Shown: in pieces, positions 5,652-33,662 of the stretch
Numbering within the stretch: position 1 is the stretch's first letter
How the letters are laid out: every line of letters starts with the position of its first letter
NCBI GenBank assembly: GCA_048213135.1
Contig: PS015389.1
Span: 15,753-79,752, forward strand
Reading direction: 5' to 3'
From: Reclinomonas americana ATCC 50394
Lineage: Eukaryota
Length of the DNA: 64,000 nucleotides
Notes under the pieces: generated by a model
Told to the model about the DNA's origin: nothing
Seen by the model: only the letters and a program-made list of their open reading frames with translations
Databases searched by the model: none
Position numbers and translations under genes: made by a program

Positions 5652-5690
<39 letters not shown>

Positions 5691-10686: not shown

Positions 10687-11801
10687 TCACAACCCCGGCG
10701 CCCGCCGCTCAATCACCTCTGCGTCCTCCAACACAAAACACCGCAGCACAACATCAACGAGAATCCAGTCACAGTCATCCTCCTCTTCCTCGTCGACAAG
10801 CAGCTCGTTGACGGCCAGCACGGCTAGCCGTGCGGCTGCGACCTCATACCCGGCCAGTCCACGCGGCGACGACCACACTCGCAAGGTCATGTCCATGCCA
10901 ATGACAATGTGATGACAGTCGGGAGTGACGGCGACAGCAAACACAGTCCTAGTATGCCCATCGAACCGTCGCACTTCTTCGCCACTCGCCAGCGACCACA
11001 CGCGCACTGTATCGTCATCACTCGCACTCACAATGTGCTGACCATCACGAGTGACAGCAACCGCGTTCACTCCTCCAGTGTGCCCTTCAAGCTCACGCAC
11101 CTCCTCGCCACTCGCCAACGACCACACGCACAGTGCTTCATCATCGCTCCCACTCACAATGTACTGACTGTCATGAGTGACAGCAACAGACCGCAAAGCT
11201 GCACCGTGTGCCATCCATTGGACTTCTTCTCCGCTCGCCAGCGACCACACGTGCATTGAGCAGTCACCACTTCCGCTCACGATGTACTGACCATCAGGGG
11301 CGACGGCAACACACGTGACAGCACCATCGTGACCGTCGAGCCGCCACACTCCGTCGCCACTCTCCAGTGACCACACTCGCACCGTCCTGTCGATGCTGCC
11401 ACTCACGACATGCTGACTGTCGGGAGTGGCAGCGACGCACAACACCCCTTGAGTATGTCCCTCCAACCGTCGCACAATCTTGCCAATCGCCAGTGACCAC
11501 ACTCGCACAGTGGTGTCTTGACTGCCACTCACGACGTGCAGACCGTCGGGAGTGACAGCGACCGAGCTCACTGATCCAGTGTGTCCTCTCAGGCGTTGCA
11601 CCTCTTTCCCACTGGCCAGTGACCACACTCGCACAGTCCGATCCCGACTCCCACTCACAACGTGCTGACTGTCGGGAGTGCAGGCCAAGCCGAACACCGT
11701 GTTCTCGTGCCCCCTTATGACCTGCGTCACGTGGTGAGTGAGATGCTGACAGTCGCACAGCACGGCACAAAGCAGACACGCGCACACACCTTTGATGCCA
11801 T
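10687..11801 (-). CDS. WD40 family gene W1 (exons 11801-11790 MASK; 11721-10687): 7 WD40 repeats plus conserved tail
   Basis: GH..V..VAVTPDG..VVSGS.D.TVRVW repeats; tail WILVDVVLRCFVLEDAEV; 68-nt GT-AG intron. Confidence 0.9.
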
Positions 11802-12113
11802 TCTGCGTCAGCGCGTGTGTTTGGAGACAAAATCGACGGCCGTGCGGAACTGTCCCACAATGTCGTGTCACTTCGTGGTCTTTGTGAAACGGAGTGCCAG
11901 CACGCATCGTTGCGTTGAAGAGGTGCATATCATAGTGTGCTGGAAGAGGTGCAGCGCTCCCGACATGACTTCACACAGCTCTGACGTTAGTGGCCGCGGC
12001 ACACAGGCATTCGGAGCTACAGATGCCTCCCAAGTTAAAGGGGATCAACGGAGAATGGCCCTTCGCTCCTGTTTTACATTGTCTCAACCAAGCCTCTCCC
12101 CTATTCCCCCCGC

Positions 12114-13246
12114 TCACCACCTCGTCGCCCCCCGCTCAATCACCTCTGCATCCTCCAACACAAAACACCGCAACACAACGTCAACGAGAATCCAGTCGCG
12201 GTCACCATCGTCCTCTTCAGCAAGTAGCTCGTTGACGGCCACGACAGCCAGTCGTGTGGCTGAGACTTCATGCCCGGCAAGTCCACGCGGCGAGGACCAC
12301 ACTCGTACGGTGTTATCACCGCCACCAGTCACAATGTGCTGTCCATCGAGAGTGACAGTGACAGAGAACACGACGTGCCCCTCCAACCGTCGCACTTCGG
12401 CGCCAGTCGCCAGCGACCACACTCGCACGGTCTTGTCCTCAGATCCGCTCACAACGTGCTGCCCATCGGCGGTGACAGCGACCGAGTTCACACATCTAGT
12501 GTGCCCCTCAAGTCGACGCACCTCCTCGCCGCTCGCCAGCGACCACACGCGCACAGTGCTGTCTCCACCCCCACTCACAATGAGCTTGCTGTCGGGAGTA
12601 ATGGCGACATACCGCACAGAGCTCGCATGCACCTCCTCAATCCGTCGCACTACTTCTCCTGTCGCCAGCGACCACACCAGAATTGTTTCGTCACCGCCCC
12701 CACTAACAATGTGCTGCCCGTCGGGAGTGACGGCAACACAAGTGACAGAACCAAGGTGCCCGTCCAGCTGTCGCACTTCCTCGCCACTCTCCAGTGACCA
12801 CACTCGCACTGTCTCATCGATGCTGCCACTCACGACATGCTGACCGTCGGGAGCGACGGCGACAGAGATCACCGCATCAGTATGGCCCTCCAATCGTCGC
12901 ACAGCCTTGCTACCTGCCAGTGACCACACGCGCACAGGGCAGTCATGGTTGCCACTCACAATGTGCTGACCGTTGGGAGTGACAGCTACAGCGCACACAA
13001 CATATGTGTTATCCTCCAAGCGTCTCACTCGTTGTCCACTCGCCAAGGACCACACTCGCACGGTCGCGTCCATGCTGCCACTCACAACGTACTGACCATC
13101 GGGAGTGACGGCCACGGTGAACACCAGCCCTAGGGACGGATGCTCCCTCAAAATCTGGGTTGTACAGATGCATGGTGAGACACACATACACACAAGCACA
13201 CACACACACACACTCACACACGAAAAATGACTACCGTTGATGCCAT
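12114..13246 (-). CDS. WD40 family gene W2 (exons 13246-13235 MAST; 13154-12114)
   Basis: 7 WD40 repeats, same tail; close paralog of W5. Confidence 0.9.
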
Positions 13247-13674
13247 TCTGCGCGCGTGAGTGTCTGCCTGCAGGAGAGTGAAGACAAATATCACCGGCGG
13301 TCCCACGTCGTACTACTTCGTCATGTTGTGAGACGGAGAGCCCGCAAGCACCGTTGTGTTGCAAGTCACAGCGTGCTACAAAGAGGAAGATATCTTGATG
13401 TTGATTTGTTTCTGGCGGGTCGCAGCACAGTGCTTCAGCACAACGCAGGTTTCCAACGAGAAAAGGTCGAAGGCGGCTGCTCGAAACCCACCATTCTACA
13501 CGTCAGTGAGAACCCTGCTCTGGAGGAAGGTGCTTGGTACTCCACACCCTGGCAGGCCAGCGATGCCGGAGTGAGGAAACAGCGGCACTGGTCTCGCATC
13601 TGATGCATCACAAAACCTCTCGACCAAACCTCTTCTCTAAACTTGTACTCTTCGCACTTCCCTATTCCCCCTGC

Positions 13675-14733
13675 TCACCACCCCGGCGCCCCCCGCTCCA
13701 TCACCTCTGCATCCTCCAACACAAAACACCGCAACACAACGTCAACGAGAATCCAGTCGCGATCGTCGTCGACAAGCAGCTCGTTGACAGCCAGCACGGC
13801 CAGTCGTGCGGCTGCGACCTCTCGCTCAGTCAGTCCACGCGGCGACGACCACACATGCAGAGTATCGTCTAAACCACCACTCACAACGTGCTGGCCATTG
13901 AGAGCGACGGCGACAGAAACCACCGCATTGGTGTGTCCCGTCAATATTTGCACCTGGTCCCCACTCGCCAGCGACCACACTCGCACGGTCATGTCAGAGC
14001 TCCCACTGAAAATGTGCTGACCATCAGGGGTGATGGCAACAGACCTCACCCACGCAGTGTGTCCCTCCAGCCGTCGAATTTTGTCGCCACTCGCCAGCGA
14101 CCACACCCGCACTGCGCAGTCCGCGCCCCCACTCACAACGTACTGACCATCGAGAGTGACGGCGACACACCGCACAGAGCCAGCATGCCCCTCCAACCGT
14201 CGCACTTGGTCGCCACTCGCCAGTGACCACACTTGCATTGTGCAGTCAACGCTCCCACTCACGACGTGCTGGCCATCGAGGGAGACAGCAACACACGTGA
14301 CAGCACCACTGTGTCCCTCCGACCGCCACACTTCGTCGCCACTCGCCAGTGACCACACACTCACTGCGGTGTCGTCACTGCCACATACAATGTGCTGACC
14401 GTCGGGAGTGACGGCGACAGAAGAGAGCCCCCGAGTGAATCCCGTCAACCGCCGCACCTCCTCGCCATTCGTCAGTGACCGCACTCGCACGGTCTTATCT
14501 CCGCCTCCACTCACCACATGTCGACCGTCGGGAGTGACGGCGACACATGACACCTTTGCAGTGTGTCTCTGGAACCGCCGCACTTCCTCGCCGCTCGCCA
14601 GTGACCACACACGCACTGTCTTGTCCCAACTGCCACTCACAATGTGCTGACTGTCGGGAGAGAAGGCCACGCAAGACACCGTGTCTGTGTGGCCCACCAA
14701 GATCTGTAGCGCACAAAAGGGTGTGGTGAGACA

Positions 14734-14788
<55 letters not shown>

Positions 14789-14832
14789 GCACGCACGCAC
14801 GCAAAAGAAAAAGACGACACCTTTGATGCCAT
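13675..14832 (-). CDS. WD40 family gene W3 (exons 14832-14821 MASK; 14703-13675)
   Basis: 7 WD40 repeats, same tail; (TG)n intron. Confidence 0.9.
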
Positions 14833-15226
14833 TCTGCGTGCGTGCGTGTGTATGCGTGCGACGAGTGACAAACCGGTGGGACGTCGTGTCACTTGGCCGC
14901 GTCACTTCGTTGTCGTTGTGCCCGCAAGCATAGTTGTGCTTTAGGCGTGCATATCAAAGTCTGCAAGCTGCTCAGAAGGAGCGGGAACATGCCCTACATG
15001 ACTTCACGGATCCGGATTGCAATTGCCCATTGCACCCTTTCCACTCATCATAAGACGACTTGAGTGAGCGCGATGCATCCTGCTTCGCCGCGCACCGGGA
15101 TAATGCATGTTTCTCAAGGCAGGGGATCAAAGAATGAAGAGAGATGGACGTTTTGCATCTTGTTTTCATCGCTATCATCTCCCAGTTGTACATATGTCTC
15201 GCTCCTCTCTGCTCTCCCTCCAAAAC

Positions 15227-16347
15227 TCACCACCCCGGCGCCCGCCGCTCCATCACCTCTGCATCCTCCAACACAAAACACCGCAGCACAACGTCGACGA
15301 GAATCCAGTCGAGGTCATCCTCCTCCTCCTCAGCAAGCAGCTCGTTGACGGCCAGCACAGCTAGTCGTGCGGCTGCGACTTCTCGCCCGGCCAGTCCACG
15401 CGGCGACGACCACACTCGCAAGGTCATGTCCATAGAGCCACTCACAATGTGATGACAGTCGGGAGTGACGGCCACAGCGAACACAGTCATAGTGTGCCCA
15501 TCAAACCGTCGCACTTCAGCGCCACTCGCCAGCGACCACACGCGCACTGTGTCGTCACTACTCGCACTCACAATGTGCTGACCATCACGAGTGACAGCGA
15601 CCGCGTTCACCCCTCCAGTGTGTCCCTCCAATCGACGCACCTCCTCGCCACTCGCCAGCGAACACACGCACAATGCCTCGTCGCTATCCCCATACACGAC
15701 GTGCTGACCGTCAGGAGTGATGACGAGACACCGCACTGAGTCATTGTGTGCCAACCATTGGACTTCATCTCCGCTCGCCAGCGACCACACTCGCATTGTG
15801 CAGTCAACACTTCCGCTCACGATGTACTGACCATCAGGTGTGACAGCAACACACGTGACAACGCCAACGTGACCGTCGAGCCGCCACACTCCGTCGCCAC
15901 TCTCCAGTGACCACACTCGCACCGTCCTGTCGATGCTGCCACTCACGACACGCTGACTGTCGGGAGTGACAGCGACAGAGATCACACCCTCAGTATGCCC
16001 CTCCAACCGTCGCACCTCCTGTCCACTCGCCAGTGACCACACTCGCACAGTGGCGTCTAGACTGCCACTCACAACGTGCAAACCGTCGGGAGTGACGGCG
16101 ACCGAGTTCACTGATCCAGTGTGTCCTTTCATGCGTCGCACCTCTTTCCCACTGGCCAGCGACCACACTCGCACAGTTCGATCCCGGCTGCCACTCACAA
16201 CGTGCTGACTGTCGACAGTGCAGGCCAAGCCGTACACCGAGTTCTCGTGTCCTCTTATGACCTGCGTCACGTGGTGAGAGAGACGCTGACAGTCAAGCAG
16301 CACAGCACACACCGCGCGCAAAGGCGACACCGTACCTTTGATGTCAT
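15227..16347 (-). CDS. WD40 family gene W4 (exons 16347-16336 MTSK; 16261-15227)
   Basis: 7 WD40 repeats; close paralog of W1. Confidence 0.9.
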
Positions 16348-16637
16348 TCCGCGCAGCGTGAGTGATAATGAGACAAATCAATGCGCTGGGACGGTTCCAC
16401 GTCGTGTCGTTTGGCAAAAGGCCTTTTTATTTGGCGGTATGTGTAAGATAGTGTGCTGGAAGAGGTACAGCACTCCCGACATGACTTCACACAGCTCTGA
16501 CGTTAGTGGCCGCGGCATACAGACATCCGGAGCTACGGATGCCTCCCAAGGCAAAGGGGATCAACGATTGACGGTAGAATGGCCCTTCGCTCCTGTTTTA
16601 CATTGTCTCAACCAAGCCTCTCCCCTATTCCCCCCGC

Positions 16638-17845
16638 TCACCACCTCGTCGCCCCCCGCTCAATCACCTCTGCATCCTCCAACACAAAACACCGCAACAC
16701 AACGTCAACGAGAATCCAGTCGCGGTCACCATCGTCCTCTTCAGCAAGTAGCTCGTTGACGGCCACGACAGCCAGTCGTGCAACAGCGACCTCATGCCCG
16801 GCAAGTCCACGTGGCGAGGACCACACTCGCACGGTGTTATCACCGCTGCCACTCACAATGTGCTGACCATCGAGCGTGACGGCGACAGAGAACACCACAC
16901 TGGTGTGCCCCTCCAACCGTCGCACTTCATCCCCATTCGCCAGCGACCACACTCGCACGGTCTTGTCCTCGGATCCGCTCACAACGTGCTGCCCATCAGC
17001 GGTGACGGCGACCGAGTTCACACATCTAGTGTGTCCCTCAAATCGACGCACCTCCTCGCCGCTCGCCAGTGACCACACGCGAACTGTGTTGTCTCCACCC
17101 CCACTCACAATGAGCTTGCTGTCGGGAGTAATGGCGACAGACCGCACAGTGTTACTATGCACCTTCTCCACCCATCGCACTGCTTCTCCAGTCGCCAGTG
17201 ACCACACCAGAATTGTTTCGTCACCGCCCCCACTAACAATGTGCTGACCGTCGGGAGTGACGGCAACACATAAAACAGAACCAAGGTGTCCATCCAGCTG
17301 TCGCACTTCCTCGCCACTCGCCAGTGACCACACTCGCACTGTCTCATCAATGCTGCCACTCACGACATGCTCTCCATTGGGGGACACAGCGACAGAGATC
17401 ACCCCGTCCGTATGTCCCTCCAATCGTCGCACAACGGCACCACTCGCCAATGACCACACTCGCATGGGGTGGTCATGGTTGCCACTCACAATGTGCTTAC
17501 CGTCGGGAGTGATGGCCACAGCGCACACAACATATGTGTTATCCTCCAACCGTCGCACTTGTTGTCCACTCACCAGTGACCACACTCGCACGGTCGCGTC
17601 CATGCTGCCACTCACAACGTACTGACCATCGGGAGTGACGGCCACGGTGAACACCAGGGACGAATGCCCCCTCAAGATCTGGGTTACACGCATATTTGGT
17701 GAGACACACACACGTGCACACACATGCACACATGCACACATACACAACGCACACACATGCGCGCGCACACACACACACACACACACTTACACACATACAC
17801 AGCACACACACACACATGCAAAAAAGACGACACCTTTGATGCCAT
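16638..17845 (-). CDS. WD40 family gene W5 (exons 17845-17834 MASK; 17678-16638)
   Basis: 7 WD40 repeats; close paralog of W2. Confidence 0.9.
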
Positions 17846-18106
17846 TCTGCGCTCGTGGAAAGAGTGACGCCTGGCGGAGACAAACCGGTGGGACGTCGAC
17901 GTCTTGGCACCTCGTCGTGTCACTTCGTCTTGTCTTGTTAGACAGAGCGCCCGCAAGCACCCGTTGTGTTGGAAGAGTGTACATCACAGTTGAGTACTCA
18001 TCATCTGACTTGACAGCCACGACGCCCGCCCACCACGAGTATTTACTGCACACCCGCTGCTCTTTCCCTCCTTCCCTCTTTTCTTCTCCTCCCTCTTCTC
18101 AGCATA

Positions 18107-19439: not shown

Positions 19440-19483
<44 letters not shown>

Positions 19484-21260: not shown

Positions 21261-21268
21261 GAGAGTGA

Positions 21269-22428
21269 CTACTCTTCGACGGCGAACAGTGGACTGCGGT
21301 ACAGTACGACTTCTGCATCCTCCACAATAAAACAGCGCAGCACCATCTCCGGGAGGCAGCGCGAATCCGGTAGCTCGTCCTCGGACAACACCTCGTCTTG
21401 CATCGCATGCACGGCCTGCATGGCCAGGCGGGCGGAATCGAGCTCCAACTGAGCGAGGCCGCGCGTCGTGGGCCACATCCGAACAGTCCAGTCCCCACTG
21501 CCACTCACAATGTGCTGGCCATCGGGTGTCACTGCCACTGCTTGCACCCAACTCGTGTGGCCTTCCAGTCGGCGCAACTCCTCGCCACTTGCCAGCGACC
21601 ACACCCGTACAGTCTTGTCCTCACTGCCACTCACAATGTGTTGGCCATCGGGTGTCACTGCCACCGCATTCACCTCTTTCGTGTGGTCTTTCAGTCGGTG
21701 CACCTCCTCACCGCTTGCCACCGACCACACCCGTACAGTCTTGTCCTCACTGCCGCTCACAATGTGTTGGCCATCGGGTGTCACCGCCACAGCACGCACC
21801 GCGCGCGTGTGGCCTTCCAGTCGACGCACCTCCTCGCCACTTGCCAGCGACCACACCCGTACAGTCTTGTCATCACTGCCACTCACAATGTGCTGCCCAT
21901 CGGGTGTCACCGCCACAGCACGCACCGCGCGCGTGTGGCCTTCCAGTCGACGCACCTCCTCGCCACTTGCCAGCGACCACACCCGTACAGTCTTGTCCCA
22001 AGTGCCACTCACAATGTGCTGGCCATCAGGTGTCACTGCCACTGCATGCACCAAACTCGGGTGACCTTCCAGTCGGCGCACCTCCTCGCCACTTGCCACC
22101 GACCGCACCCGCACAGTCTCGTCTTGACTGCCACTCACAATGCACTGGCCATCAGGAGTCACTGCCACTGCATACACCCAATGCGTGTGGCCTCCAACTC
22201 GGCGCACCTCTTCGCCACTTGCCACCGACCACACCCGCACAGTCTCGTCTTGACTGCCACTCACAATGTGCTGTCCATCGGGTGTCACTGCCACCGCATT
22301 CACCGCACTCGTGTGGCCTTGCAGAACGTTCTGCACCAACCTCCGTGGTTAAACAACGGGCGCACCGCAGCAAACAAACACACAAAACTCCAGACAAACG
22401 CGCGCACCATTGATCCAGAAGCGTCCAT
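21269..22428 (-). CDS. WD40 family gene W6 (exons 22428-22408 MDASGSM; 22330-21269) with near-identical 126-bp repeats
   Basis: 7 highly homogenised WD40 repeats; tail RCLPEMVLRCFIVEDAEV. Confidence 0.9.
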
Positions 22429-22550
22429 TCTCAACAGCTCGACGGGAGTGTGTGAGTGGCCGGAGTATAGTAGAGTGCGAGAAAATGGGACAGGATTTCG
22501 GACGCTCGACGTTCCGACGGTGACGACCGTCGACAACTCGCGCGCGCGAC

Positions 22551-23781
22551 ATGACAGCTAGAGTTCCGTTGTTTGTGACTTCCTCCCTCCTCTCCCCTCG
22601 CTTTCTCATCACTATGTCAGCTGATTCACGTTTTCCCTGTCTTCTTTCACTCCCTCCCTTCTCCTCCCACCCTCCTTCCCCCCCTTTCCTCGCAGATCCT
22701 CGCAGGCCACGACCACTGGATACTCTCCGTGGCCATCACCCCCGACGGCCTGCACGTGGTGAGCGGCAGTGCCGACCACACCATTCGCGTGTGGTCACTC
22801 TCCTCTGGGAACGTGGTGCGCCGACTGGAGGGGCACACGGACCGCGTGACGAGTGTGGCGGTCACTGCCGATGGCCTGCGCGTCGTGAGCGGCAGTTGGG
22901 ATACGACGCTGTGCGTGTGGTTGCTGGCGAGTGGGAAGGAGGTGCGACGGATCAAGGATTGCCAGCATCTGCAGGTTCGCTGCGTCGCCGTCACTCCCGA
23001 CGCGCAGCACATTGTGAGTGGCAGTGGCAAGGTGGTGAGTGTGTGGTCGGCGGTGAGTGGCGGCAAGGCGGTGCGGCAGTTGCTGGGCCATACGGACTGG
23101 GTGAATGCGGTGGCTGTCGCCCCCGACGGTGAGCACGTGGTGAGCGGGAGTCACGATTGGACGGTGCGAGTGTGGTCACTGGCGACGGGCGAGGAGGTGC
23201 GACTGCTGACTGGACACCATCATTGGGTGAGGGCGGTCGCTGTCACCCGCGATGGTCTGCGCGTGGTGAGTGGCAGCTTCGGCGGGACATTGCGTGTGTG
23301 GCCGCTCGTGGAGACGGGTGGGGAGGAGGGGCGACTGATGGAGGGACATAGCGAGGGGGTGGTTGCAGTGGCCGTCACTCCCGACAGCCAGCACGCGGTG
23401 AGCGGGAGTGACGACAAGAGTGTGCGAGTGTGGTCGCTGGCGAGTGGTGAGGAAGTGCGACGGTTGGAGGGGCACGTGGACGGAGTAACGTCGGTCGTCG
23501 TCTCTCTCGACGGCCAGCACATTGTGAGTGGCGGTCGCGACGCGATGGTGCGAGTGTGGTCCACGCCGCTGGGTCTCGCTAAGTGGGAGCTGGCTGTGGC
23601 GCGATCGGCCTTGCGAGGGGTGCACGAGATGCAGCAGGAGGAGGGTGGCGGAGAGGGAGAGGATCCGCGCTGCCTGCCGGAGATGGTGCTGCGCTGCTTC
23701 ATTGTCGAGGAGGCCGAGGTGGTGGTGCATCGGTGTGCCGCTGACGGAGGCTGGGGAGCGGACAAGAAGTGGCGGGTCTAG
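22551..23781 (+). CDS. WD40 family gene W7 (exons 22551-22562 MTAR; 22696-23781)
   Basis: 7 WD40 repeats; tail RCLPEMVLRCFIVEEAEV; head-to-head with W6. Confidence 0.88.
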
Positions 23782-23941: not shown

Positions 23942-25055
23942 ATGACGACGACCAAGGTGTGTGCACACCTCGTGCCCATCCGCTCTCCACCCTTCTTACT
24001 TTCCTGTGCAGATCTTCGAGGGACACACCAATGGAGTGAACTCTGTCGCCTTCACTCCCGACGGCCTCCACATGGTGAGTGGTGGCTGGGACCTCACTGC
24101 GCGTGTGTGGTCACTGGCGAGTGGCGAACAAGTGCGACGCTTTGATGGGCACACGCACTGGGTGCAGGCTGTCGCCGTCACCCCCGACGGTGAGCACTGT
24201 GTGAGTGCGGGTCGTGATTGCAAGATACGAGTGTGGTCACTGGCGAGTGGCGAGGAGGTGCGGCGACTGGAGGGCCACACCAGTGCAGTGTGGTGTGTGG
24301 CTGTGACTCCCGATGGTCGGCACGTTGTGAGCGGAGGTAACGACCCGAGTGGCACCATCCGGGTGTGGTCACTGTCGACGGGTGAAGAGGTGCGACGATT
24401 AGAGGGACACTTGGGATGCGTGCACTCAGTTGTTGTCACACCCGACGGGCAGCACGTGGTGAGTGGCAGCGAGGACACCACTGCGCAAGTGTGGTCACTG
24501 GAGAGTGGCGAGGAGGTGTGCCTGTTGCTCGGACACACCGACTGGGTCAACTCGGTGGCCGTCACTCCCGACGGTCGACACGTGGTGAGTGCGAGTCACG
24601 ACACGACTGTGCGTGTGTGGTTGCTGGCGAGTGGAGAAGAAGTGCGGCGGTTGGAGGGGCACACTCGGTGGGTGTGGTCTGTCGCCGTCACTCCCGATGG
24701 AGAGCACGTGGTGAGTGGCAGCTATGATGGTACGGCGCGCGTGTGGTCACTGGAGAGTGGTGAAGAGGTGCGACGATTAGAGGGACATACGGATGGTTTG
24801 ATGTGCATTGCCGTCTCCCCCGACGGCGGGCACATTGCTGGTGGTGGTCGCGACAAGAGCGTGCGAGTGTGGTCTACACCGCGGGCGCTGGCCAGCCATG
24901 AGCTCAGGTGCGCGTGGTGCGCGATGCAGGCCGTGCAGGAGATGAAGGAGGAGGGCGCAGAGGGCGTCGATTCGCGTTGCTTGCCGGAGATGGTGCTGCG
25001 GTGCTTCATTGTCGAGGAGGCCGAGGTGATGGTCAACAGGCGGGGTGGGTGGTGA
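23942..25055 (+). CDS. WD40 family gene W8 (exons 23942-23956 MTTTK; 24012-25055)
   Basis: 7 WD40 repeats, conserved tail. Confidence 0.9.
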
Positions 25056-25477: not shown

Positions 25478-26606
25478 ATGGCCACGAGGGTGAGCACGCG
25501 TGTTCACTCCTTCGCATCCATCACCCTCTCACCGTGTGCGCGACACAGAACTACAAGTTGCACACCGGGCAAGTGTACTGTGTTGCCGTCTGCCCCGATG
25601 GTCAGTTGGCAGTGAGTGGAGGCGCGGACAAGACCGTGCGTGTGTGGTCACTTCTAAGTGGAGAGACAGCGCGAGTGCTGGAAGGTCACACAGACGAGGT
25701 GCACTCGGTTGCCGTCACTCCCGACGGTCGTCACGTGGTGAGCGGCAGCTATGACATGACGGTGCGAGTGTGGTCACTGGCGAGTGAGAGCAAGTGCGAC
25801 AGCTGGAGGGGCACGCAGGGAAAGTGCGCTCTGTCGCTGTCACTCCCGACGACCAGCACATTGTGAGCGGCGGTTACGACAACACTGTGCGCGTGTGGTC
25901 TCTTGCGAGTGGCGAGGAGGTGCGACGATTCAAGGGACACACTGGCTGGGTGTTCACTGTCGCTGTCGCTCCCGACGGGCGGCACGTGGTGAGTGGGAGC
26001 GAAGACGCCACTGTGCGCGTATGGTCGCTCGAGAGTGGCGAGGAGGTGCGACGGTTGGAGGGACGCGCTGGATGGGTTTTCACTGTCGCCGTCACTCCCG
26101 ATGGCGAGCACGTGGTCATCGGGAATGACTTCGGAGCCGTACGCGTGTGGTCACTCTCTTCCGGCAAAGTGGAGCGCCGGTTGGAGGGACACACCGGCTG
26201 GGTGGCGGCTGCCGCTGTCACCCGCGACGGTCAGCATATCGTCACTGGGAGCGAAGACGCAACTGTGCGCGTGTGGTCGGCGGCAAGCGGGCAAGAAGTG
26301 CGACAACGGTCGGAGGCTGGCATGGTAAAGGCGCTCGCCCTCACCCCCGACAACCAGCACATTGTGTGCGGGATCAACGACGGGATGGTATTTGTGTGGT
26401 CCACGCCACTTGGCATCGCCCACATTGAGGTCGCTGCGGCGCGCCTGGCCATGCAGGCCGTGCAGGAGATGCAGGAGGAGGGTGGAGAGGAGGAGGACGT
26501 AAGGTCGCACTGCCTGCCGGAGATCGTGTTGCGCTGCTTCATTGTCGAGGAGGCCGAGGTGGTGGCGTATCGGTGTCTCGACGACCCATCCTGCATGCTT
26601 TGGTGA
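25478..26606 (+). pseudogene. WD40 family gene W9 (exons 25478-25489 MATR; 25549-26606) with a 1-nt frameshift at ~25786; pseudogene or sequencing error
   Basis: GCG AGT G AG AG CAA where paralogs read GCG AGT GGN GAG; WD40 repeats continue in the shifted frame (ORF 25794-26606) to an intact tail. Confidence 0.75.
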
Positions 26607-26942: not shown

Positions 26943-28107
26943 ATGAGGGTGAGCACGTCTTCTTGCTCCTCTCCTTTACATTCTTCTCTCTCACACCGTG
27001 CACGTGACACAGATCTACAAGTGGCACGCCGGGCAGGTCTATTGTGTTGCCGTCACTCCCGATGGCCAGCTCGTTGTGAGCGGAGGTGCGAACAAGACTG
27101 TGCGCGCGTGGTCACTGGCGAGCGGAGGATTGGTGCGAGTAATGGAGGGACACACAGACGAGGTGTACTCTGTCGCCGTCACTCCCGACGGCGATCAAGT
27201 GGTGAGCGGAAGCAATGACAGGACGGTGCGGGTGTGGTCCCTCGCCAGGGGCGAGGAGGTGCGACGGCTGGAGGGACACGCAGGGAGAGTACGCTCCGTC
27301 GCTGTCACTCCCGACGGGCAGCACATTGTGAGCGGCAGTTACGACAACACAGTGCGCGTGTGGTCCCTCGCCAGTGGCGAGGAAGTGCGACGTCTGCAGG
27401 GGCACACTCGATGGGTGCGATCTGTCGCTGTCACTCCCGACGGGCGACATGTGGTGAGCGGGGGCGAAGACGCCACTGTGCGTGTGTGGTCGCTCGAGAA
27501 TGGCGAGGAGGTGCGACGGTTGGAGGGACGCACTGGATGGGTGATGTGTATCGCCGTCACTCCCGACGGTCAGCACGTTGTCGTCGGGAATGAGGACGCA
27601 TCCGTACAAGTGTGGTCGCTGTCTTCTGGCAAAGTGGTGCGACGGCTGGAGGGACACACCGCATGGGTGGCGTCAGTTGCTGTCACCCGCGACGGTCAGC
27701 ACATTGTCAGTGGGGGCAGTATATTTAGAGACAGGACCGTGCGAGTGTGGGCACTGTCGAGCGGCAAGCAGGTGCGGCAGTTGGAGGCTACCTTGGTGAA
27801 TTGTGTCGCCATCTCTCCCGACGGGCAGCGCATTGTCAGTGGCTGCGGCGGGCTCGGGGACAACCTCATGCGAGTGTGGTCCACACCGCTTGGTCTCGCT
27901 CAGTCGGAGCTCCAGTGCGCGCGCTCGGCCATGCAGGCCGTGCAGGAGATGCAGGAGGGGGAGGGAAAGGGGGAGGGAGTGGGGGAGGAGGAGGAGGAGC
28001 AAGATCCGCGATGTTTGTTGGAGATTGTGTTGCGCTGCTTCATGGTGGAGGAGGCCGAGGTGGTGGTACATCGGTGCTTCGACGACCCATCTAACCTACT
28101 TTGGTGA
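26943..28107 (+). CDS. WD40 family gene W10 (exons 26943-26948 MR; 27013-28107)
   Basis: 7 WD40 repeats; closest to W9 (YK.H.GQVYCVAV first repeat); tail RCLLEIVLRCFMVEEAEV. Confidence 0.88.
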
Positions 28108-28234: not shown

Positions 28235-28695
28235 GTGAGTGTATGTGATGGCAAGAGAGCCTGTTCTTGTTTCCCGGATGTATTCTTGGTTCTCATTGCC
28301 AACCTCTTTTCCTTTTTTTTTCTGTCGGCAGAACGAAGGCGTCCGTATATCACGAAGAAGCATGGTGCACTCGGGGCGAGAGAACCTGTTCTTGTTTCCC
28401 GTTTGTTGTCAACTTTTTGCCTGCCAAACCCTCTCTTGTTTGTTGTCGGCAGAATAGTGGCGTGTGAGTGTATGTGCTCAACTCTGTTGCTCGTGCACAT
28501 GGCAAGAGAGTCTGTTCTTGTTTCCCGGATGTATTCTTGGCTCTCAGTGCCAACCTCTTTCCCTTGTATTCTGTCGGCAGATCCGTATATCTTGAGCACT
28601 CGGGGCGAGAGAACCTGTTCTTGTTTACCGTTGGTTGTCAACTTTTTGCCTGCCAAACCCTCTCTTGTTTTGTCGGCAGAATAGTGGCGTGTGTA
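28235..28695. repeat. Intergenic tandem duplication (~2 x 230-250 bp, each made of two related subunits)
   Basis: atggcaagagag.ctgttcttgtttcccggatgtattcttgg twice; gcactcggggcgagagaacctgttcttgttt twice; tgtcggcaga four times. Confidence 0.85.
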
Positions 28696-29061: not shown

Positions 29062-30233
29062 ATGACGACCAAGGTGTGCTCGTCACTCGCCGCTTCCCAT
29101 GCCCCACACGCCCCTCTCATCCTCCCCCCTTGACCTCACAGATCTTCAAAGGACACACCAACGAGGTGAAGGCTGTCGCCATCACTCCCGACGGCCTCCA
29201 CCTGGTGAGTGGTGGCGCAGACCTCACTGTGCGCGTGTGGTCTCTGGCAAGTGGCAAACAAGTGCGACGATTCGAGGGACATACTACTGGCGTGCAGTCA
29301 GTGGCCGTCACCCCCGACAGTGCGCACGTGGTCAGTGGAGCGCGTGATGGATCAGTGCGCGTGTGGTCGCTGGCGAGTGACGCGGGCGAGGAAGAAGTGC
29401 GCCGGTTCGCCAACCTCTCCAACTTTGAGTTCTGCGTCGCTGTCACGCCCGACGGCCGACACATTGTCAGTGGAGGAGCGCATGGCTTCATTCACGTGCT
29501 GTCGCTCGACAGTGGCGAGGTGGTGCGACGGTTGGAGGGACACATGAATGTGGTGTACGCTGTCGGTGTCACTCCCGACAGTCAGCGCATTGTCAGTGGA
29601 GGTCGCGATACGACGGTGCGTGTGTGGTCGCTGGCGAGTGGAGAGCAACTACTTCGCATGGAGGGGCACGCGGATGCGGTGTTCTCTCTGGCGGTCACCG
29701 CCGACGGGCAGCACGTGGTGTCGGCGAGCAACGACGCCACGGTGCGAGTGTGGTCGCTGGCGAGTGGGACGGAGGTGCGACGGTTGCAGGGGCGCCACGG
29801 TGGTGTGTATGCGGTCGCCGTCACTCCCGACAGTCGGCACGTGGTGTTTGGTGGCGCCGACTGCACGGTGCGCGTGTATTCGCTGCTGGCGGAGGGTGGC
29901 GATGAGGTGAGGGAGGTGGGGCGACAAGAAGGGTTCGTGTCGTCACTCGCGGTAATGCCCGACGGCGAGCACGTGGTGAGCGGGAGTACCGATGCGGCGG
30001 TGCGGGTGTGGATCTCGCCGCATGGACTCGCGCGGCTGGAGCTCAGGTGTGCGCGTGCGGCGATGGAGGTGGTGCAGGGGATGCTGCGGGAGGGTGGTGA
30101 GAGAGAGGTAGAGGGAGACGGAGAGGGAGAGTTGCGGTGCCTGCCGGAGATGGTGCTGCGGTGTTTTATTGTGGAGGATGCGGAGGTGGTGGTGTATCGG
30201 TGGATGGAGGAGCCGGCGGGGATGTTTTGGTGA
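29062..30233 (+). CDS. WD40 family gene W11 (exons 29062-29073 MTTK; 29142-30233)
   Basis: 7 WD40 repeats, conserved tail. Confidence 0.9.
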
Positions 30234-30542: not shown

Positions 30543-31484
30543 NNNNNNNNNNNNNNNNNNNNNNNNNNNNNNNNNNNNNNNNNNNNNNNNNNNNNNNNNN
30601 NNNNNNNNNNNNNNNNNNNNNNNNNNNNNNNNNNNNNNNNNNNNNNNNNNNNNNNNNNNNNNNNNNNNNNNNNNNNNNNNNNNNNNNNNNNNNNNNNNNN
30701 NNNNNNNNNNNNNNNNNNNNNNNNNNNNNNNNNNNNNNNNNNNNNNNNNNNNNNNNNNNNNNNNNNNNNNNNNNNNNNNNNNNNNNNNNNNNNNNNNNNN
30801 NNNNNNNNNNNNNNNNNNNNNNNNNNNNNNNNNNNNNNNNNNNNNNNNNNNNNNNNNNNNNNNNNNNNNNNNNNNNNNNNNNNNNNNNNNNNNNNNNNNN
30901 NNNNNNNNNNNNNNNNNNNNNNNNNNNNNNNNNNNNNNNNNNNNNNNNNNNNNNNNNNNNNNNNNNNNNNNNNNNNNNNNNNNNNNNNNNNNNNNNNNNN
31001 NNNNNNNNNNNNNNNNNNNNNNNNNNNNNNNNNNNNNNNNNNNNNNNNNNNNNNNNNNNNNNNNNNNNNNNNNNNNNNNNNNNNNNNNNNNNNNNNNNNN
31101 NNNNNNNNNNNNNNNNNNNNNNNNNNNNNNNNNNNNNNNNNNNNNNNNNNNNNNNNNNNNNNNNNNNNNNNNNNNNNNNNNNNNNNNNNNNNNNNNNNNN
31201 NNNNNNNNNNNNNNNNNNNNNNNNNNNNNNNNNNNNNNNNNNNNNNNNNNNNNNNNNNNNNNNNNNNNNNNNNNNNNNNNNNNNNNNNNNNNNNNNNNNN
31301 NNNNNNNNNNNNNNNNNNNNNNNNNNNNNNNNNNNNNNNNNNNNNNNNNNNNNNNNNNNNNNNNNNNNNNNNNNNNNNNNNNNNNNNNNNNNNNNNNNNN
31401 NNNNNNNNNNNNNNNNNNNNNNNNNNNNNNNNNNNNNNNNNNNNNNNNNNNNNNNNNNNNNNNNNNNNNNNNNNNNNNNNNNNN
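30543..31484. other. Assembly gap (other gaps: 36286-36995, 46202-46781, 51301-51453, 54864-55394)
   Basis: N runs flanked by (CT)n/(AG)n microsatellites. Confidence 1.
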
Positions 31485-31611
31485 CTCTCTCTCTCCTGTC
31501 TCCCACCATTGTGCGCTTTGTGCCCAAACCTGTCCTGTCACACCCACCGCGTCTGGTTGGCAGATTTTCATTGGGTGTATTTTTGAACTTTTTTGACTGC
31601 GAGAACAAGCC

Positions 31612-33662
31612 ATGATCGGTTGCGTCTTCGTGATCGAGTGAGAGACTGTCATTCAGCTCACTTGTTCACGCGCGCAGGCTCAGTCGCTCACGGCGCTGCC
31701 AACGACGCCGCGCCCCCTGCCATTTCTTCACCACCATCGCCGATTCGCAAAGACAAGCCGCTATTGCTCCGGGAGGCCTCGCGTCATGCTCACCAGCGAG
31801 AGCAGCAGTCAACGACCTCGTCACTGGTGTGTCTGTGTGTGTCTTGAGTGTTTCTGTGCGTGTTCGTTCGTGGTGCTTCTTTGGGGGGAGTCTATTTTTT
31901 GCTCATGTGTCTCACAGGGGTCATCGGAAAATTCTTCGACATCGGTGGACCCCGTGCGCGACATGCAAGGTAAATGAAAACGCGTTGGTGAGGGATGAGA
32001 CCTCGGAGTGGGCTCAAACTCTGGCTGTGAAGGTCCAAGGCCTCGTGCTGTCGAGGTTCCTGCGAACGGGCTTGTCTCGTTGAATATCGACCCTCGTCCA
32101 TCGATGTATCCAGCTCGCCTACTCTCTGCTGAAGACAATGTGCTGGCACGTGACCCAGCCGTCCTCTTAAGCCACCCCAGCGCCTCCTCATTGCCGTCAG
32201 CCGGCACCTCATCTCCGCTACTCACGTCCACTACTCCAGCGGCTGATCCTACATTTCCGAGTCTCCCGTCTGTTCCATCAGCTTCGGTTGTGCGGCAACC
32301 GCGGGGGCACGAGGAACCAGAACAGGCAAGCACCCGTCTTGCGCACCTGACACTGCTTCGCTGGCGTGCTCACACGCATCTGCAGGATGGAGAGGTGGGC
32401 GCTATCACCGCGACAAGCATTCCGAGTCTCCGACCTGCGCCATCAGCAGCAGCTTCGGTCGTCCGGCTACCGCAAGATGATGATCCATATCGGGAGCATG
32501 AGGAACCAGAACAGGCAAGTACCCTGCATGCGCGCGTCTGATACAGCTTCGTTGGTGTGCTCACGAGTGGCTACAGGGAGACGAAGTGGGCGTTATCACC
32601 TCTGCGTGCATATTCAGCGGGCACACTAAGGAGGTGCTGTCAGTTGCCGTCACTCCCGACGGTCAACACATCGTGACTGGAAGCGATGATTGGACGATAC
32701 GAATATGGTCTCTGGCGACTGGAGCGGAATTGCGACGACTTTTAGGGCACATGCACACAGTGCAGTCGGTCACTCTCACTGCAGACGGGCAACTGGTGGT
32801 CAGTGGAAGCAATGATAAGACAGTGCGTGTCTGGACGTTGTCGAGTGGCGCCGAGGTGCGACGGTTCATGGGGCACTCTGGCATCGTTTTCTGTGTCGCG
32901 GTCACTCCTGGCGGTTGGTACATAGTGAGTGGGAGTGAGGATGGGACGATTCGAGTGTGGTCGCTTGCGAGTGGCCGACAAGTACGACGGCTCGAGGGAC
33001 ACATCGGTGCGGTGCATTCCATCGCCCTCACTGGCAACGGTCGATATGTTGTCAGTGGCGGCGCGGACAGCACAGTTCGGGGGTGGTCACTGGCCAATGG
33101 AGCGGAGGTGTTACTGTTGAAGGGGCATAGCAACAAGGTGTATTCAGTTGCCATCTCTCCCGACGGTCAGCACATTGTCAGCGGAAGCGCGGACTACACG
33201 GTGCGCTTGTGGTCACTGGCGAGTGGAGAGGAGGTGCGACGGTTTGAGGGACACTTTGAGGAGGTGATGTCTGTCGCCGTCACGCCAGATAGTCAATACG
33301 TTGTCAGCTGCAGTTATGATATGACGGTGCGAGTGTGGTCCCTGGCAAACGGACAGGAAGTGCGACGTTTGGAGGGACACACTGACGCAGTGATGACTGC
33401 CGTTGTAACACCCGACGGCGACAGCATCGTGAGTGGCAGCTGCGACAAGAAAGTTCGAGTGTGGCAAACGCCCCTTGACTTCGCACTCGAAGAGCACAGC
33501 AGCGCATATTCAGCCATGCAGGCTGTGCAGGAGATGCTGGAAGGCGGCGAAGAGCCGAGTGTGAGCTGCCTACCGGAGATTGTGTTGCGGTGCTTCATGG
33601 TTCCGGATGCGGATGCCGTTATCAATCAGCGTCTCGACGATCCGTATGAACTGTTTCGATAG
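31612..33662 (+). CDS. WD40 family gene W12 with a S/P-rich N-terminal extension (~6 exons; last exon 32577-33662)
   Basis: 7 WD40 repeats plus tail SCLPEIVLRCFMVPDADAV. Upstream exons join in frame from ATG 31612 through GT-AG introns and two GC-AG introns (32326-32385, 32515-32576). The 5' model is less certain. Confidence 0.8.

What the first reader, a model, noticed from the sequence alone, without database searches (positions are those of the whole stretch)
10687..33662. Array of 12 stand-alone WD40-propeller genes with a shared tail: candidate diversified receptor/E3-adaptor system
Seen: 12 paralogs in 23 kb, each with 7 highly similar 42-aa WD40 repeats and the same ~60-aa C-terminal module. 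The array shows segmental duplication, two orientations, small indels and one frameshifted copy. Known: WD40 repeats with high internal conservation are the variable sensor domains of fungal HNWD/NWD NLRs (HET-E/HET-D), where they are fused to NACHT. Here there is no NACHT or NB-ARC domain. Inference: a birth-and-death family of ligand-binding propellers coupled to one constant effector tail, like an innate-immune or substrate-targeting repertoire in a protist.
Basis: partly seen in the sequence, partly recalled or inferred. Interest (0 to 1): 0.9.

Follow-up and report, generated by a model that had tools for sequence, protein, structure and literature searches.

The report
Twelve tandem WD40 propeller genes, novel tail
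A protist genome carries a cluster of twelve small genes, each encoding a ring-shaped binding protein with a variable binding face and the same short, previously undescribed helical tail; what they bind is unknown.

Summary
Window 10687-33662 holds 12 paralogous genes, 6 on each strand, transcribed away from a head-to-head point near 22.49 kb. Each has a tiny first exon (2-7 codons), a 55-155 nt GT..AG intron, seven 42-aa WD40 repeats and a 59-77 aa C-terminal tail. Copies are 64-87% identical in DNA, so this is not an assembly artefact. One copy has a 1-nt deletion. Propeller scaffold and tail show purifying selection (dN/dS 0.1-0.5).

The repeats are unusually alike (51-76% within a protein). 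Variation sits at the known top-face hotspot positions, which change about 2.5 times faster than the rest but without consistent dN/dS above 1.

The tail has no Pfam, PDB or fold match beyond a generic alpha-hairpin. A profile of it found only 4 proteins among 1.84 billion representatives. One is a Reclinomonas americana EST, and none carries a NACHT domain.

My reading is a lineage-specific, birth-and-death family of stand-alone binding propellers of the highly/moderately repetitive WD40 kind. They share a new docking or oligomerisation tail. An immune or E3-adaptor role is possible but no test supports it.

The parts
10687..11801 (-). Copy 1: exon 1 11801-11790 (MASK), 68-nt intron, exon 2 11721-10687; type-A tail 10878-10687
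12114..13246 (-). Copy 2: exon 1 13246-13235 (MAST), 80-nt intron, exon 2 13154-12114; type-A tail 12302-12114
13675..14832 (-). Copy 3: exon 1 14832-14821 (MASK), 117-nt intron holding a (GT)n microsatellite, exon 2 14703-13675; type-A tail 13854-13675
15227..16347 (-). Copy 4: exon 1 16347-16336 (MTSK), 74-nt intron, exon 2 16261-15227; type-A tail 15415-15227; segmental duplicate of copy 1
16638..17845 (-). Copy 5: exon 1 17845-17834 (MASK), 155-nt intron, exon 2 17678-16638; type-A tail 16826-16638; segmental duplicate of copy 2
21269..22428 (-). Copy 6: exon 1 22428-22408 (MDASGSM), 77-nt intron, exon 2 22330-21269; type-B tail 21475-21269; the most repetitive copy (repeats 75.5% alike; 126-bp DNA period at 87% matches)
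22429..22550 (.). 122-bp spacer between the start codons of the head-to-head copies 6 and 7; inferred bidirectional promoter
   Evidence: coordinates; the promoter role is inference only
22551..23781 (+). Copy 7: exon 1 22551-22562 (MTAR), 133-nt intron, exon 2 22696-23781; type-B tail 23554-23781
23942..25055 (+). Copy 8: exon 1 23942-23956 (MTTTK), 55-nt intron, exon 2 24012-25055; type-B tail 24867-25055; this is the copy that was modelled
25478..26606 (+). Copy 9: exon 1 25478-25489 (MATR), 59-nt intron, exon 2 25549-26606 with a 1-nt deletion near 25787 that shifts the frame after repeat 2; type-B tail 26394-26606
26943..28107 (+). Copy 10: exon 1 26943-26948 (MR), 64-nt intron, exon 2 27013-28107; type-B tail 27874-28107
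29062..30233 (+). Copy 11: exon 1 29062-29073 (MTTK), 68-nt intron, exon 2 29142-30233; type-B tail 30006-30233
32498..33662 (+). Copy 12: exon 1 32498-32518 (MRNQNRQ), 58-nt intron, exon 2 32577-33662; type-B tail 33459-33662; this exon 1 is the least certain of the twelve

Best explanation
This is a lineage-specific, tandemly duplicated family of small soluble proteins of about 345-370 aa. Each is a single seven-bladed WD40 propeller of the 'moderately to highly repetitive' kind.

The top face differs from paralog to paralog. The variable residues are repeat positions 3, 4, 5, 7, 23 and 25, which include the canonical R1-2, R1 and D-1 contact residues. The C-terminus is a constant alpha-helical hairpin built around an invariant VLRCF core.

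Shown here: the genes, their two-exon architecture, the fold, the pattern of variability, purifying selection on scaffold and tail, and the rarity of the tail.

Inferred: each paralog binds a different ligand on its top face, and the common tail docks all of them onto one shared partner or joins them into oligomers. That would make a set of interchangeable recognition subunits.

The array grows and decays by unequal crossing-over and gene conversion. This is birth-and-death evolution, with some repeat turnover inside genes, most visible in copy 6.
For: Copies and gene structure:
- 12 of 12 copies were found.
- 12 of 12 have an ATG, 1-6 further codons, a GT donor and a phase-0 AG acceptor directly before the first blade. 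In 11 of 12 the intron has a stop in the exon-1 frame or a length that is not a multiple of three, so splicing is needed to stay in frame.

Fold:
- Pfam WD40 scores E = 4e-71 with 7 stretches.
- The AlphaFold2 model of copy 8 gives a 7-blade propeller at pLDDT 94-98, then helices 290-313, 321-332 and 334-342 at pLDDT 62-81.
- The tail modelled alone is a two-helix hairpin at mean pLDDT 82.5.

Pattern of variability:
- Column entropy over 83 repeats exceeds 3.1 bits at positions 4, 5, 7, 23 and 25, is 2.4 bits at position 3, and is below 2 bits at most scaffold positions.
- Scaffold identity is 63.5% against 13.2% at the six variable positions.
- Positions 5, 7 and 23 are the R1-2, R1 and D-1 contact positions defined in PMC3419727 (passages read).

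Selection:
- dN/dS is 0.10-0.38 for the scaffold and 0.21-0.50 for the tail in 8 pairs. A-priori hotspot codons pooled give 0.78 against 0.31 for the rest.
- 11 of 12 reading frames are intact.
- Copy 9 differs from copy 10 with scaffold dN/dS 0.25, so its frameshift is recent or a sequencing error.

Not an artefact:
- DNA identity between copies is 64-87%.

The tail as a separate module:
- A profile of the tail hits 4 proteins among 1,835,955,588.
- Two of the four are full-length, much more diverged propellers, 23-30% identical to the window's copies. So the tail is conserved independently of the repeat sequence.
- One hit is an EST of Reclinomonas americana, so a family member is transcribed somewhere.
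Against: - There is no expression evidence for this locus itself, and the exon-1 and intron models rest on sequence pattern alone.
- No partner or ligand is known.
- Omega at the hotspot codons is above 1 in only 1 of 3 recent pairs (1.56, 0.40, 0.60). Relaxed constraint explains the variability as well as adaptive diversification does.
- High variability at top-face positions is a general property of WD40 repeats, so on its own it does not show a repertoire function.
- The structure models rest on shallow alignments of 14 and 16 rows, mostly paralogs. The second half of the tail is modelled differently in the two runs: two short helices, one long helix.
- The whole genome is not held. I could not count family members or look for the tail on other domains in this organism.
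Confidence: 0.55

Rival explanations
1. The proteins are substrate receptors of a cullin-RING ubiquitin ligase. The propeller would select the substrate. The helical tail would be a divergent adaptor-binding box, in the manner of an F-box, a SOCS/BC box or the DDB1-binding helix-loop-helix of DCAFs (that last motif is recalled, not from a call).
For: The overall logic fits: one variable propeller plus one short constant helical module, expanded into many paralogs. The tail is predicted to be helix-loop-helix. The type-B core reads LPE[MI]VLRCF, which by eye recalls the start of an F-box. That resemblance is recalled, not tested by a call.
Against: - 5 of the 6 tails scanned matched no Pfam family even at E <= 10. 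The sixth had only two sub-threshold hits to unrelated families. There was no F-box or SOCS-box hit.
- A profile search of PDB sequences found nothing relevant (best E = 0.45, a designed repeat protein).
- Foldseek and VIA-align returned only generic alpha-hairpins, with flat lists (E > 1; Z <= 8).
- In known F-box/WD40 proteins the box lies N-terminal to the propeller (textbook knowledge). Here only 2-7 residues precede it.
- No Skp1, elongin, cullin or DDB1 gene was seen among the 10 neighbouring ORFs scanned.
Confidence: 0.15
2. The proteins are an innate-immune or non-self sensor repertoire that works without a fused NTPase. The hypervariable propellers would detect foreign molecules, and the tail would recruit a separately encoded signalling or death-executing protein. 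That would be a 'split' analogue of the fungal HNWD NLRs.
For: - The repeats are recognisable as DNA-level tandem repeats of 126 bp at 67-87% matches.
- Internal identity is far above the under-40% figure that PMC5587647 gives for most eukaryotic WD40 proteins.
- The variable positions have exactly the spacing (n, n+1, n+2, n+4, n+20, n+22) of six of the seven high-dN/dS positions (10, 11, 12, 14, 30, 32, 39) used for het-d/het-e in PMC12222747.
- There is clustered birth-and-death evolution with likely gene conversion.
- Omega is 1.56 at hotspots in the copy 1 / copy 4 pair.
Against: - No NACHT, NB-ARC, TIR, HET or other signalling domain is present in the copies, in the 10 neighbouring ORFs scanned, or in any of the 4 tail-bearing proteins elsewhere.
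- Omega is below 1 in 2 of 3 recent pairs and when pooled.
- Internal identity is 51-59% in 11 of 12 copies, against over 80% in HNWD genes.
- Every copy has exactly seven repeats. There is none of the repeat-number variation that marks HNWD alleles.
- There are no population or challenge data.
Confidence: 0.12
3. It is an ordinary expanded family with a constitutive cellular role, for example cytoskeletal, flagellar or trafficking scaffolds. The paralogs would be sub-functionalised, and the tail would be merely a structural cap or a folding aid for the propeller.
For: - Selection is purifying throughout.
- A family member appears in a general EST library of a free-living flagellate.
- The neighbours are unrelated housekeeping-type genes: a DEAD-box helicase, a 2OG oxygenase, and TPR and ankyrin proteins.
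- This region holds other tandem duplicates too, such as the ankyrin pair at 58996-60466.
Against: - The family is missing from nearly all sequenced life. There are 4 tail hits among 1.84 billion representatives, and a metagenome scan confirmed none of 241 pattern matches. That is unlike a conserved cellular scaffold.
- The closest propeller relatives are bacterial and fungal repetitive WD40 domains at 40-56% identity, not housekeeping eukaryotic orthologs.
Confidence: 0.15
4. It is an artefact or dead DNA: collapsed or expanded haplotypes, bacterial contamination, or an array of pseudogenes.
For: The scaffold has 5 N gaps, one of them inside the array. One copy is frameshifted. The propeller resembles bacterial WD40 domains most closely.
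Against: - Copies differ by 13-36% in DNA, far more than haplotypes or assembly duplicates would.
- 11 of 12 frames are open and dN/dS is 0.1-0.5.
- All 12 copies have GT..AG introns.
- An intron-bearing 2OG oxygenase gene lies inside the array, which rules out bacterial contamination.
Confidence: 0.03

Closest known systems
Highly-Repetitive / Moderately-Repetitive WD40 proteins of bacteria, fungi and protists (Hu et al. 2017, PMC5587647). Solved examples are the Thermomonospora curvata PkwA WD40 domain (5yzv) and the Nostoc repetitive propeller (2ymu).
   Same: - The repeat is 42 aa with a conserved Asp-His-Ser/Thr-Trp tetrad.
- Internal identity is above the 0.4 cut-off in all 12 copies and above 0.7 in copy 6.
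- Variation is confined to the hotspot positions.
- The best structural matches are 5yzv (E = 1.9e-33, 40% identity, TM 0.95 on the target) and 2ymu.
- The best sequence relatives are 40-56% identical and cover about 82% of the query, that is the propeller only.
   Different: - Those proteins are usually multi-domain (kinase, STAND NTPase, TIR, caspase-like) or carry more than seven repeats. These are single seven-blade propellers with almost no N-terminus.
- These carry a C-terminal alpha-hairpin tail that none of the 120 listed relatives covers.
- These sit in a 12-gene tandem array in a eukaryote and have spliceosomal-type introns.
Fungal HNWD/NWD NOD-like receptors (HET-E, HET-D, HET-R of Podospora anserina)
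   Same: WD40 repeats with high internal conservation, and hypervariable codons with the same spacing inside the repeat. Paralogous gene family with signs of recombination.
   Different: - There is no HET domain and no NACHT domain.
- There are seven repeats, not about eleven forming two propellers.
- Repeat identity is 51-76%, not 80-100%.
- Diversifying selection is not demonstrated.
- A C-terminal tail is present.
WD40 substrate receptors of E3 ligases (FBXW7/beta-TrCP with an F-box, WSB1 with a C-terminal SOCS box, DCAFs, Cdc20/Cdh1 with a C-terminal IR tail). These names and features are recalled from general knowledge.
   Same: One propeller that selects the target, plus one short constant motif that plugs it into a shared machine. 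WSB1 and Cdc20 show that such a motif can sit C-terminal to the propeller.
   Different: No sequence or fold match of the tail to any of these boxes was found. No ligase component lies nearby. The repeats are far more alike than in those proteins.
Unnamed tail-bearing proteins P0001-P0004. P0001 is Reclinomonas americana EST EC795383 in EukProt. P0002-P0004 come from unnamed assembled contigs.
   Same: They share the tail with the invariant L..VL.CF core. P0002 carries the type-A tail. P0001 and P0003 carry the type-B tail, and the split has 99/100 support. P0001 is 66% identical to copy 6 over 107 aa.
   Different: P0002 and P0003 have much more diverged propellers, 23-30% identical to the window's copies. 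P0004 is 87 aa with no propeller. Their genomic context could not be read.

Membership tests
WD40 repeat / beta-propeller (Pfam PF00400) | Tandem repeats of about 40 aa matching the WD40 profile above its curated cut-off | tested here: met
   232.9 bits (cut-off 27), E = 4e-71, 7 stretches for copy 3. 219 and 202.6 bits for N-terminally truncated ORFs of copies 8 and 12. Only 3 of the 12 copies were scanned whole.
WD40 repeat / beta-propeller (Pfam PF00400) | Closed seven-bladed propeller fold | tested here: met
   The AlphaFold2 model of copy 8 has 28 strands in seven 4-strand sheets at pLDDT 94-98. Foldseek gave at least 500 PDB matches at E <= 0.001, and the listed ones are WD40 or other beta-propeller structures. 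This is a prediction, not a solved structure.
Highly-/Moderately-Repetitive WD40 (Hu et al. 2017) | Internal repeat identity >= 0.7 (HR) or >= 0.4 (MR) | tested here: met
   Mean pairwise repeat identity is 0.755 for copy 6 (HR) and 0.506-0.593 for the other 11 (MR). The cut-offs come from passages of PMC5587647. I used my own MAFFT alignment of 83 repeats, not the authors' WDSP pipeline.
Highly-/Moderately-Repetitive WD40 (Hu et al. 2017) | Conserved scaffold with diversity at the predicted top-face hotspot sites | tested here: met
   Entropy is 3.49, 3.68 and 3.83 bits at R1-2, R1 and D-1 (positions 5, 7, 23), and below 2 bits at most scaffold positions.
Fungal HNWD/NWD NLR (HET-E/HET-D type) | Central NACHT NTPase domain N-terminal to the WD40 repeats | tested here: not met
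   Only 2-7 codons precede the first blade. Spacers between same-strand genes are 160-428 bp in 7 of 9 junctions, by arithmetic. No NACHT appears in the Pfam rows shown for 3 copies (the best 25 of 49-55 families are listed) or in 10 neighbouring ORFs.
Fungal HNWD/NWD NLR (HET-E/HET-D type) | Repeat identity of 80-100% within a gene | tested here: not met
   Identity is 0.51-0.59 in 11 copies and 0.755 in copy 6, with a best single pair of 0.905. The criterion comes from PMC12222747 passages.
Fungal HNWD/NWD NLR (HET-E/HET-D type) | Hypervariable codons at repeat positions 10, 11, 12, 14, 30, 32, 39 | tested here: inconclusive
   Six variable positions (3, 4, 5, 7, 23, 25 counted from GH) have the same spacing as 10, 11, 12, 14, 30, 32. 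The seventh (39, which would be my 32) is conserved here at 1.07 bits. I did not verify that paper's repeat register.
Fungal HNWD/NWD NLR (HET-E/HET-D type) | Diversifying selection (dN/dS > 1) at those codons | tested here: inconclusive
   At a-priori hotspot codons omega is 1.56, 0.40 and 0.60 in three recent pairs, and 0.78 pooled (63 codons). No site-model test and no population data.
F-box/WD40 proteins (FBXW) | F-box domain (Pfam PF00646; accession recalled) N-terminal to the propeller | tested here: not met
   There is no room at the N-terminus. None of the 6 of 12 tails scanned matched an F-box at E <= 10.
WD40 + SOCS box proteins (WSB) | C-terminal SOCS box recognisable by profile | tested here: not met
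   There was no SOCS-box hit in the 6 of 12 tails scanned at E <= 10 and none in the PDB profile search. At fold level the result is inconclusive: only generic hairpins were listed.
Gcp1-Gcp3, the Pex7-like WD40 proteins that co-occur with the mitochondrial T2SS in jakobids, heteroloboseans and malawimonads (PMC8134430) | Closest relationship to Pex7 within the WD40 superfamily | not tested
   The sequences are in that paper's supplementary data, which I could not open. Indirectly, the window's propellers are closest to bacterial and fungal repetitive WD40 domains, and no Pex7 appears among the rows listed.

The most novel reading that the evidence does not exclude
The array is a germline-encoded recognition repertoire of a deep-branching protist that works without any fused NTPase. 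The stand-alone hypervariable propellers would capture foreign or variable ligands. A previously unknown alpha-hairpin domain, in two ancient sub-types A and B that might pair with each other, would then assemble them onto a separately encoded signalling or degradation machine. That would be a new architecture for WD40-based non-self or substrate sensing, and a new adaptor domain.
Probability: 0.15. Interest if true: 0.8.

Novelty: new variant of a known kind. Interest (0 to 1): 0.45.

Why it matters
Repetitive WD40 propellers with variable top faces are known as sensor domains of multi-domain proteins: fungal NLRs, and bacterial STAND NTPases and kinases. Here the same kind of propeller has been released from any such partner, fused to a tiny domain nobody has described, and amplified twelve-fold in one locus of a poorly studied eukaryote.

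If the tail proves to be a docking or oligomerisation module, it defines a new way of plugging interchangeable propellers into a common machine. It also gives a handle, the tail profile, for finding that machine.

Even on the ordinary reading the work gives three things. It supplies curated two-exon gene models. It defines a new family found in only a handful of sequences worldwide. And it offers a compact natural set of stable seven-blade propellers with different binding faces.

Tried and rejected
- RNA evidence. The look-up of sequencing runs on window 10600-20500 listed no RNA holder. This says nothing about expression.
- Own genome. It is not held, so there was no genome-wide count of the family or the tail.
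- Word-based protein search with the type-A tail. 322 candidates, none at E <= 0.01.
- JGI metagenome scan with the tail alignment. 241 pattern matches, none confirmed by tblastn.
- ESM Atlas with the tail. No usable hit.
- Earlier findings of this scan. Nothing by place or by sequence.
- Homodimer prediction of the tail (complex prediction, 2 copies). The verdict was 'no answer', with score 0.02 against a mark of 0.32, controls not run and my alignment not used. It counts neither for nor against binding.
- Fold searches with the tail model. Foldseek's best hit was E = 1.4 (the AcrA/MexA hairpin). The VIA-align wide search had a top Z of 8.0 in a flat list of unrelated helical hairpins. No F-box or SOCS-box chain appeared among the rows shown, which does not exclude them.
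- PDB sequence profile search. Two chance-level hits.
- Organism identification through the neighbouring DDX27-like helicase. The best hits were 54-61% identical and spread over plants, oomycetes, haptophytes and unnamed protists. So there is no close annotated relative. The only taxonomic lead is the jakobid EST, and it does not show that the window is from a jakobid.
- A link to the Gcp1-3 WD40 proteins of jakobids (PMC8134430). Considered and set aside. Those are described as Pex7-like, and their sequences are in supplements I could not read.
- A conserved upstream motif, GAAGTGACACGAC. It gave 5 matches in the window against 3.1 expected, and 25 of 100 shuffles reached 5. It is therefore not significant as a count, although 4 of the 5 lie 51-81 nt upstream of the start codons of copies 1, 3 and 5.
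- dN/dS at six variable positions chosen from the same data. This is circular, so I replaced it with the three a-priori hotspot positions.
- Literature. Searches for 'jakobid + nuclear genome + WD40' (5 papers) and 'Reclinomonas + WD40' (6 papers) turned up no description of this family. I judged this from titles and abstracts, plus passages of PMC8134430 only.

Full report
**What is there**

The window is eukaryotic DNA at about 56-60% G+C, with many microsatellites and five N gaps.

tblastn with one tail, and a six-frame motif scan, each find exactly 12 copies of a WD40-plus-tail gene between 10687 and 33662. Copies 1-6 lie on the minus strand and copies 7-12 on the plus strand. Copies 6 and 7 are head to head, with 122 bp between their start codons.

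An intron-bearing 2OG-Fe(II) oxygenase gene at about 18.1-21.1 kb on the minus strand separates copies 5 and 6. A 942-N gap separates copies 11 and 12. No other WD40 stretch lies outside these 12 genes in the 64 kb.

**Gene models**

In all 12 copies an ATG followed by 1-6 codons (MASK, MAST, MTSK, MTTK, MTTTK, MTAR, MATR, MR, MDASGSM, MRNQNRQ) ends at a GT. Then 55-155 nt downstream an AG acceptor sits in phase 0 directly before the first blade. In 11 of 12 the intervening stretch has a stop in the exon-1 frame or a length that is not a multiple of three.

For copy 12 I moved the exon-2 start from 32574 to 32577 after seeing that CAG belongs to the intron.

Spacers between the stop of one gene and the ATG of the next same-strand gene are 160, 290, 312, 336, 394, 422 and 428 bp. 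The other two junctions are 954 bp and 2264 bp, and the last includes the gap (arithmetic).

These models are inferred from sequence only. No RNA run could be listed. The proteins are therefore essentially a bare propeller plus tail. There is no room for a NACHT or any other N-terminal domain.

**Not an artefact, not dead**

A 2.5-kb segment holding copies 1 and 2 is duplicated as copies 4 and 5 at 86.7% identity. All other copy pairs are 64-77% identical in DNA. That is far too diverged for haplotype or assembly duplication.

Eleven reading frames are intact. Copy 9 has a single-base deletion near 25787.

Nei-Gojobori estimates on 8 pairs give dN/dS of 0.10-0.38 for the propeller scaffold and 0.21-0.50 for the tail. 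This includes copy 9 against copy 10 (0.25), so the frameshift in copy 9 is recent or a sequencing error.

**The propeller**

- Pfam WD40 scores E = 4e-71 with seven stretches.
- AlphaFold2 on an alignment of 11 copies plus three outside relatives gives a seven-blade propeller at pLDDT 94-98.
- Its best PDB matches are the WD40 domain of Thermomonospora curvata PkwA (5yzv, 40% identity), designed symmetric propellers, and the Nostoc 'highly repetitive propeller' 2ymu.
- Its best sequence relatives are 40-56% identical and cover about 82% of the query, that is the propeller only. The named ones are cyanobacterial, other bacterial, one archaeal and fungal proteins, and most of the rest are unnamed metagenome proteins.

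The repeats are unusually alike. Mean pairwise identity within a protein is 0.51-0.59 in 11 copies and 0.755 in copy 6. Tandem Repeats Finder detects the 126-bp period in the DNA at 67-78% matches, and at 87% in copy 6.

By the cut-offs quoted in PMC5587647 (passages read), this makes 11 'moderately repetitive' and one 'highly repetitive' WD40 protein. That paper reports this class for bacteria, fungi and about 2% of protist WD40 proteins.

**Where the copies differ**

Over the 83 repeats analysed, column entropy is 3.2-3.8 bits at positions 4, 5, 7, 23 and 25 of the unit that starts at GH. It is 2.4 bits at position 3. It is mostly below 2 bits elsewhere.

Identity is 13% at these six positions and 63.5% at the rest.

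Positions 5, 7 and 23 are the R1-2, R1 and D-1 top-face contact residues defined by Wu et al. (PMC3419727, passages).

The six positions also have the same spacing as six of the seven high-dN/dS positions (10, 11, 12, 14, 30, 32, 39) used for het-d/het-e (PMC12222747, passages). I did not check that paper's register, and the seventh position is conserved here.

My first dN/dS test used sites chosen from the same data, which is circular. I repeated it on the three a-priori positions. Omega is 1.56, 0.40 and 0.60 in the three recent pairs, and 0.78 pooled, against 0.31 for the rest of the propeller. The binding face therefore evolves about 2.5 times faster, but adaptive diversification is not shown.

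**The tail**

After the last blade comes a 59-77 aa tail. Its invariant residues in the 12 copies are W2, E12, A19, V23, L41 and V45-L46-R47-C48-F49. Nine of the 12 copies end in Trp.

Two sub-types exist:
- Type A (copies 1-5): ...DWILVDVVLRCFVLEDAEV...
- Type B (copies 6-12): ...RCLPE[MI]VLRCF[IM]V[EP][ED]A[ED][VA]...

Modelled alone, the tail is a two-helix hairpin at mean pLDDT 82.5. In the full-length model it forms three helices at pLDDT 62-81.

Nothing known matches it:
- No Pfam family for 5 of the 6 tails scanned, and two sub-threshold hits for the sixth.
- Nothing in PDB sequences.
- Only generic hairpins by Foldseek and VIA-align.
- Nothing in the ESM Atlas.

A profile of the 12 tails, scored against 1,835,955,588 cluster representatives, found four proteins. 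Each is alone in its cluster:
- P0001 is a 116-aa fragment from a Reclinomonas americana EST. It is 66% identical to copy 6.
- P0002 (394 aa) and P0003 (381 aa) have far more diverged propellers, 23-30% identical to the window's copies.
- P0004 is an 87-aa protein without a propeller.

None of the four has any other domain, and none is longer than 394 aa. In that library the tail is therefore never fused to an NTPase.

On a tree of the C-terminal 115 residues, types A and B split with 99/100 support. P0002 falls with type A, and P0001 and P0003 fall with type B. The two tail types are therefore older than the array's own duplications.

Copy 3 groups with copies 1 and 4 on the full length, but with copies 2 and 5 on the C-terminal part. 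Tail dS is also lower than scaffold dS in several type-A pairs. Both observations suggest gene conversion. Support for the discordant nodes is moderate (86/92 and 88/86).

**Interpretation**

The shown facts fit a birth-and-death family of stand-alone recognition propellers with a constant C-terminal module.

I infer that the variable top faces bind different ligands, and that the tail docks the proteins to a common partner or oligomerises them. Its second helix has 7 hydrophobic residues in 8 (MVLRCFIV), which is hard to bury in a lone hairpin.

I rate this at 0.55. Whether the common partner is a ubiquitin ligase (0.15), a defence signalling protein (0.12) or a constitutive structure (0.15) is open. 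No test here discriminates between them, and the one complex prediction returned no verdict.

**Context**

The neighbouring genes are a DDX27-like DEAD-box helicase, TPR proteins and ankyrin proteins. The helicase is at most 61% identical to any protein in the 5.8-billion set. The organism therefore has no close annotated relative. The jakobid EST is the only taxonomic lead.

The Pex7-like WD40 proteins Gcp1-3, reported for jakobids and allies (PMC8134430, passages), appear to be a different family. Their sequences are in supplements I could not read.

**Verdict**

This is a new variant of a known kind: repetitive WD40 propellers in a new stand-alone architecture with a new tail domain, amplified in tandem. 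Interest is moderate.

Noticed in passing
window 18107-21151 (-): A multi-exon 2OG-Fe(II) oxygenase gene sits inside the WD40 array between copies 5 and 6. Pfam 2OG-FeII_Oxy scores E = 1.1e-14 on the last exon, and there is a weak DIOX_N hit on an upstream exon.
   Followed up: partly
window 28242-28670: Four direct repeats of about 75 nt at 103-126 bp spacing lie in the unusually long (954 bp) spacer between copies 10 and 11. They form two sub-types that alternate. The two copies of one sub-type are 97% identical, and the other two copies are each 63% identical to that reference.
   Followed up: partly
window 32302-32344 and 32491-32533: The predicted exon 1 and donor site of copy 12 is duplicated 189 bp upstream at 86% identity. 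There, the ATG is replaced by ACG. It looks like a relic of a tandem duplication of the 5' end.
   Followed up: no
window 11862-11874, 14883-14908, 17914-17926 (-): The motif GAAGTGACACGAC, or a near match, lies 51-81 nt upstream of the start codons of copies 1, 3 and 5. As a count in the window it is not significant. It may be a shared promoter element or just shared ancestry.
   Followed up: partly
window 58996-60466 (+): Two adjacent, overlapping-frame ORFs encode similar ankyrin-repeat proteins (Ank_2 at E = 6e-30 and 1.5e-20). This is another tandem duplicate in the region.
   Followed up: partly
window about 44400-47300 and 48300-49900 (+): Two neighbouring stretches encode similar sequences, seen only in translation. 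Both have a '...CRGDLPRV...LRRFR...' segment followed by a hydrophobic, membrane-protein-like region. This may be a further tandem gene pair.
   Followed up: no
window 4436-6953 (-): These are exons of a DDX27/RH28-like DEAD-box helicase. The best database identity is only 54-61%, spread over plants, oomycetes, haptophytes and unnamed protists. This indicates an organism without close annotated relatives.
   Followed up: partly
window 53237-58546 (+): This is a TPR-repeat protein gene broken by long (TC)n/(GA)n microsatellites and an N gap (54864-55395). TPR_1 scores E = 8.5e-35 on one exon.
   Followed up: no
copies 1-5, C-terminal 115 aa versus full length: There is tree discordance. Copy 3 groups with copies 1 and 4 on the whole protein, but with copies 2 and 5 on the tail region. 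Tail dS is also lower than scaffold dS in the 2-5 and 3-1 pairs. Together these suggest gene conversion of tails among type-A copies.
   Followed up: partly
C-termini of the 12 copies and of P0003: Nine of the 12 copies, and P0003, end in a tryptophan (...GW, ...RW, ...LW, ...FW, ...WW). A conserved C-terminal aromatic residue could be a docking determinant. This was not tested.
   Followed up: no
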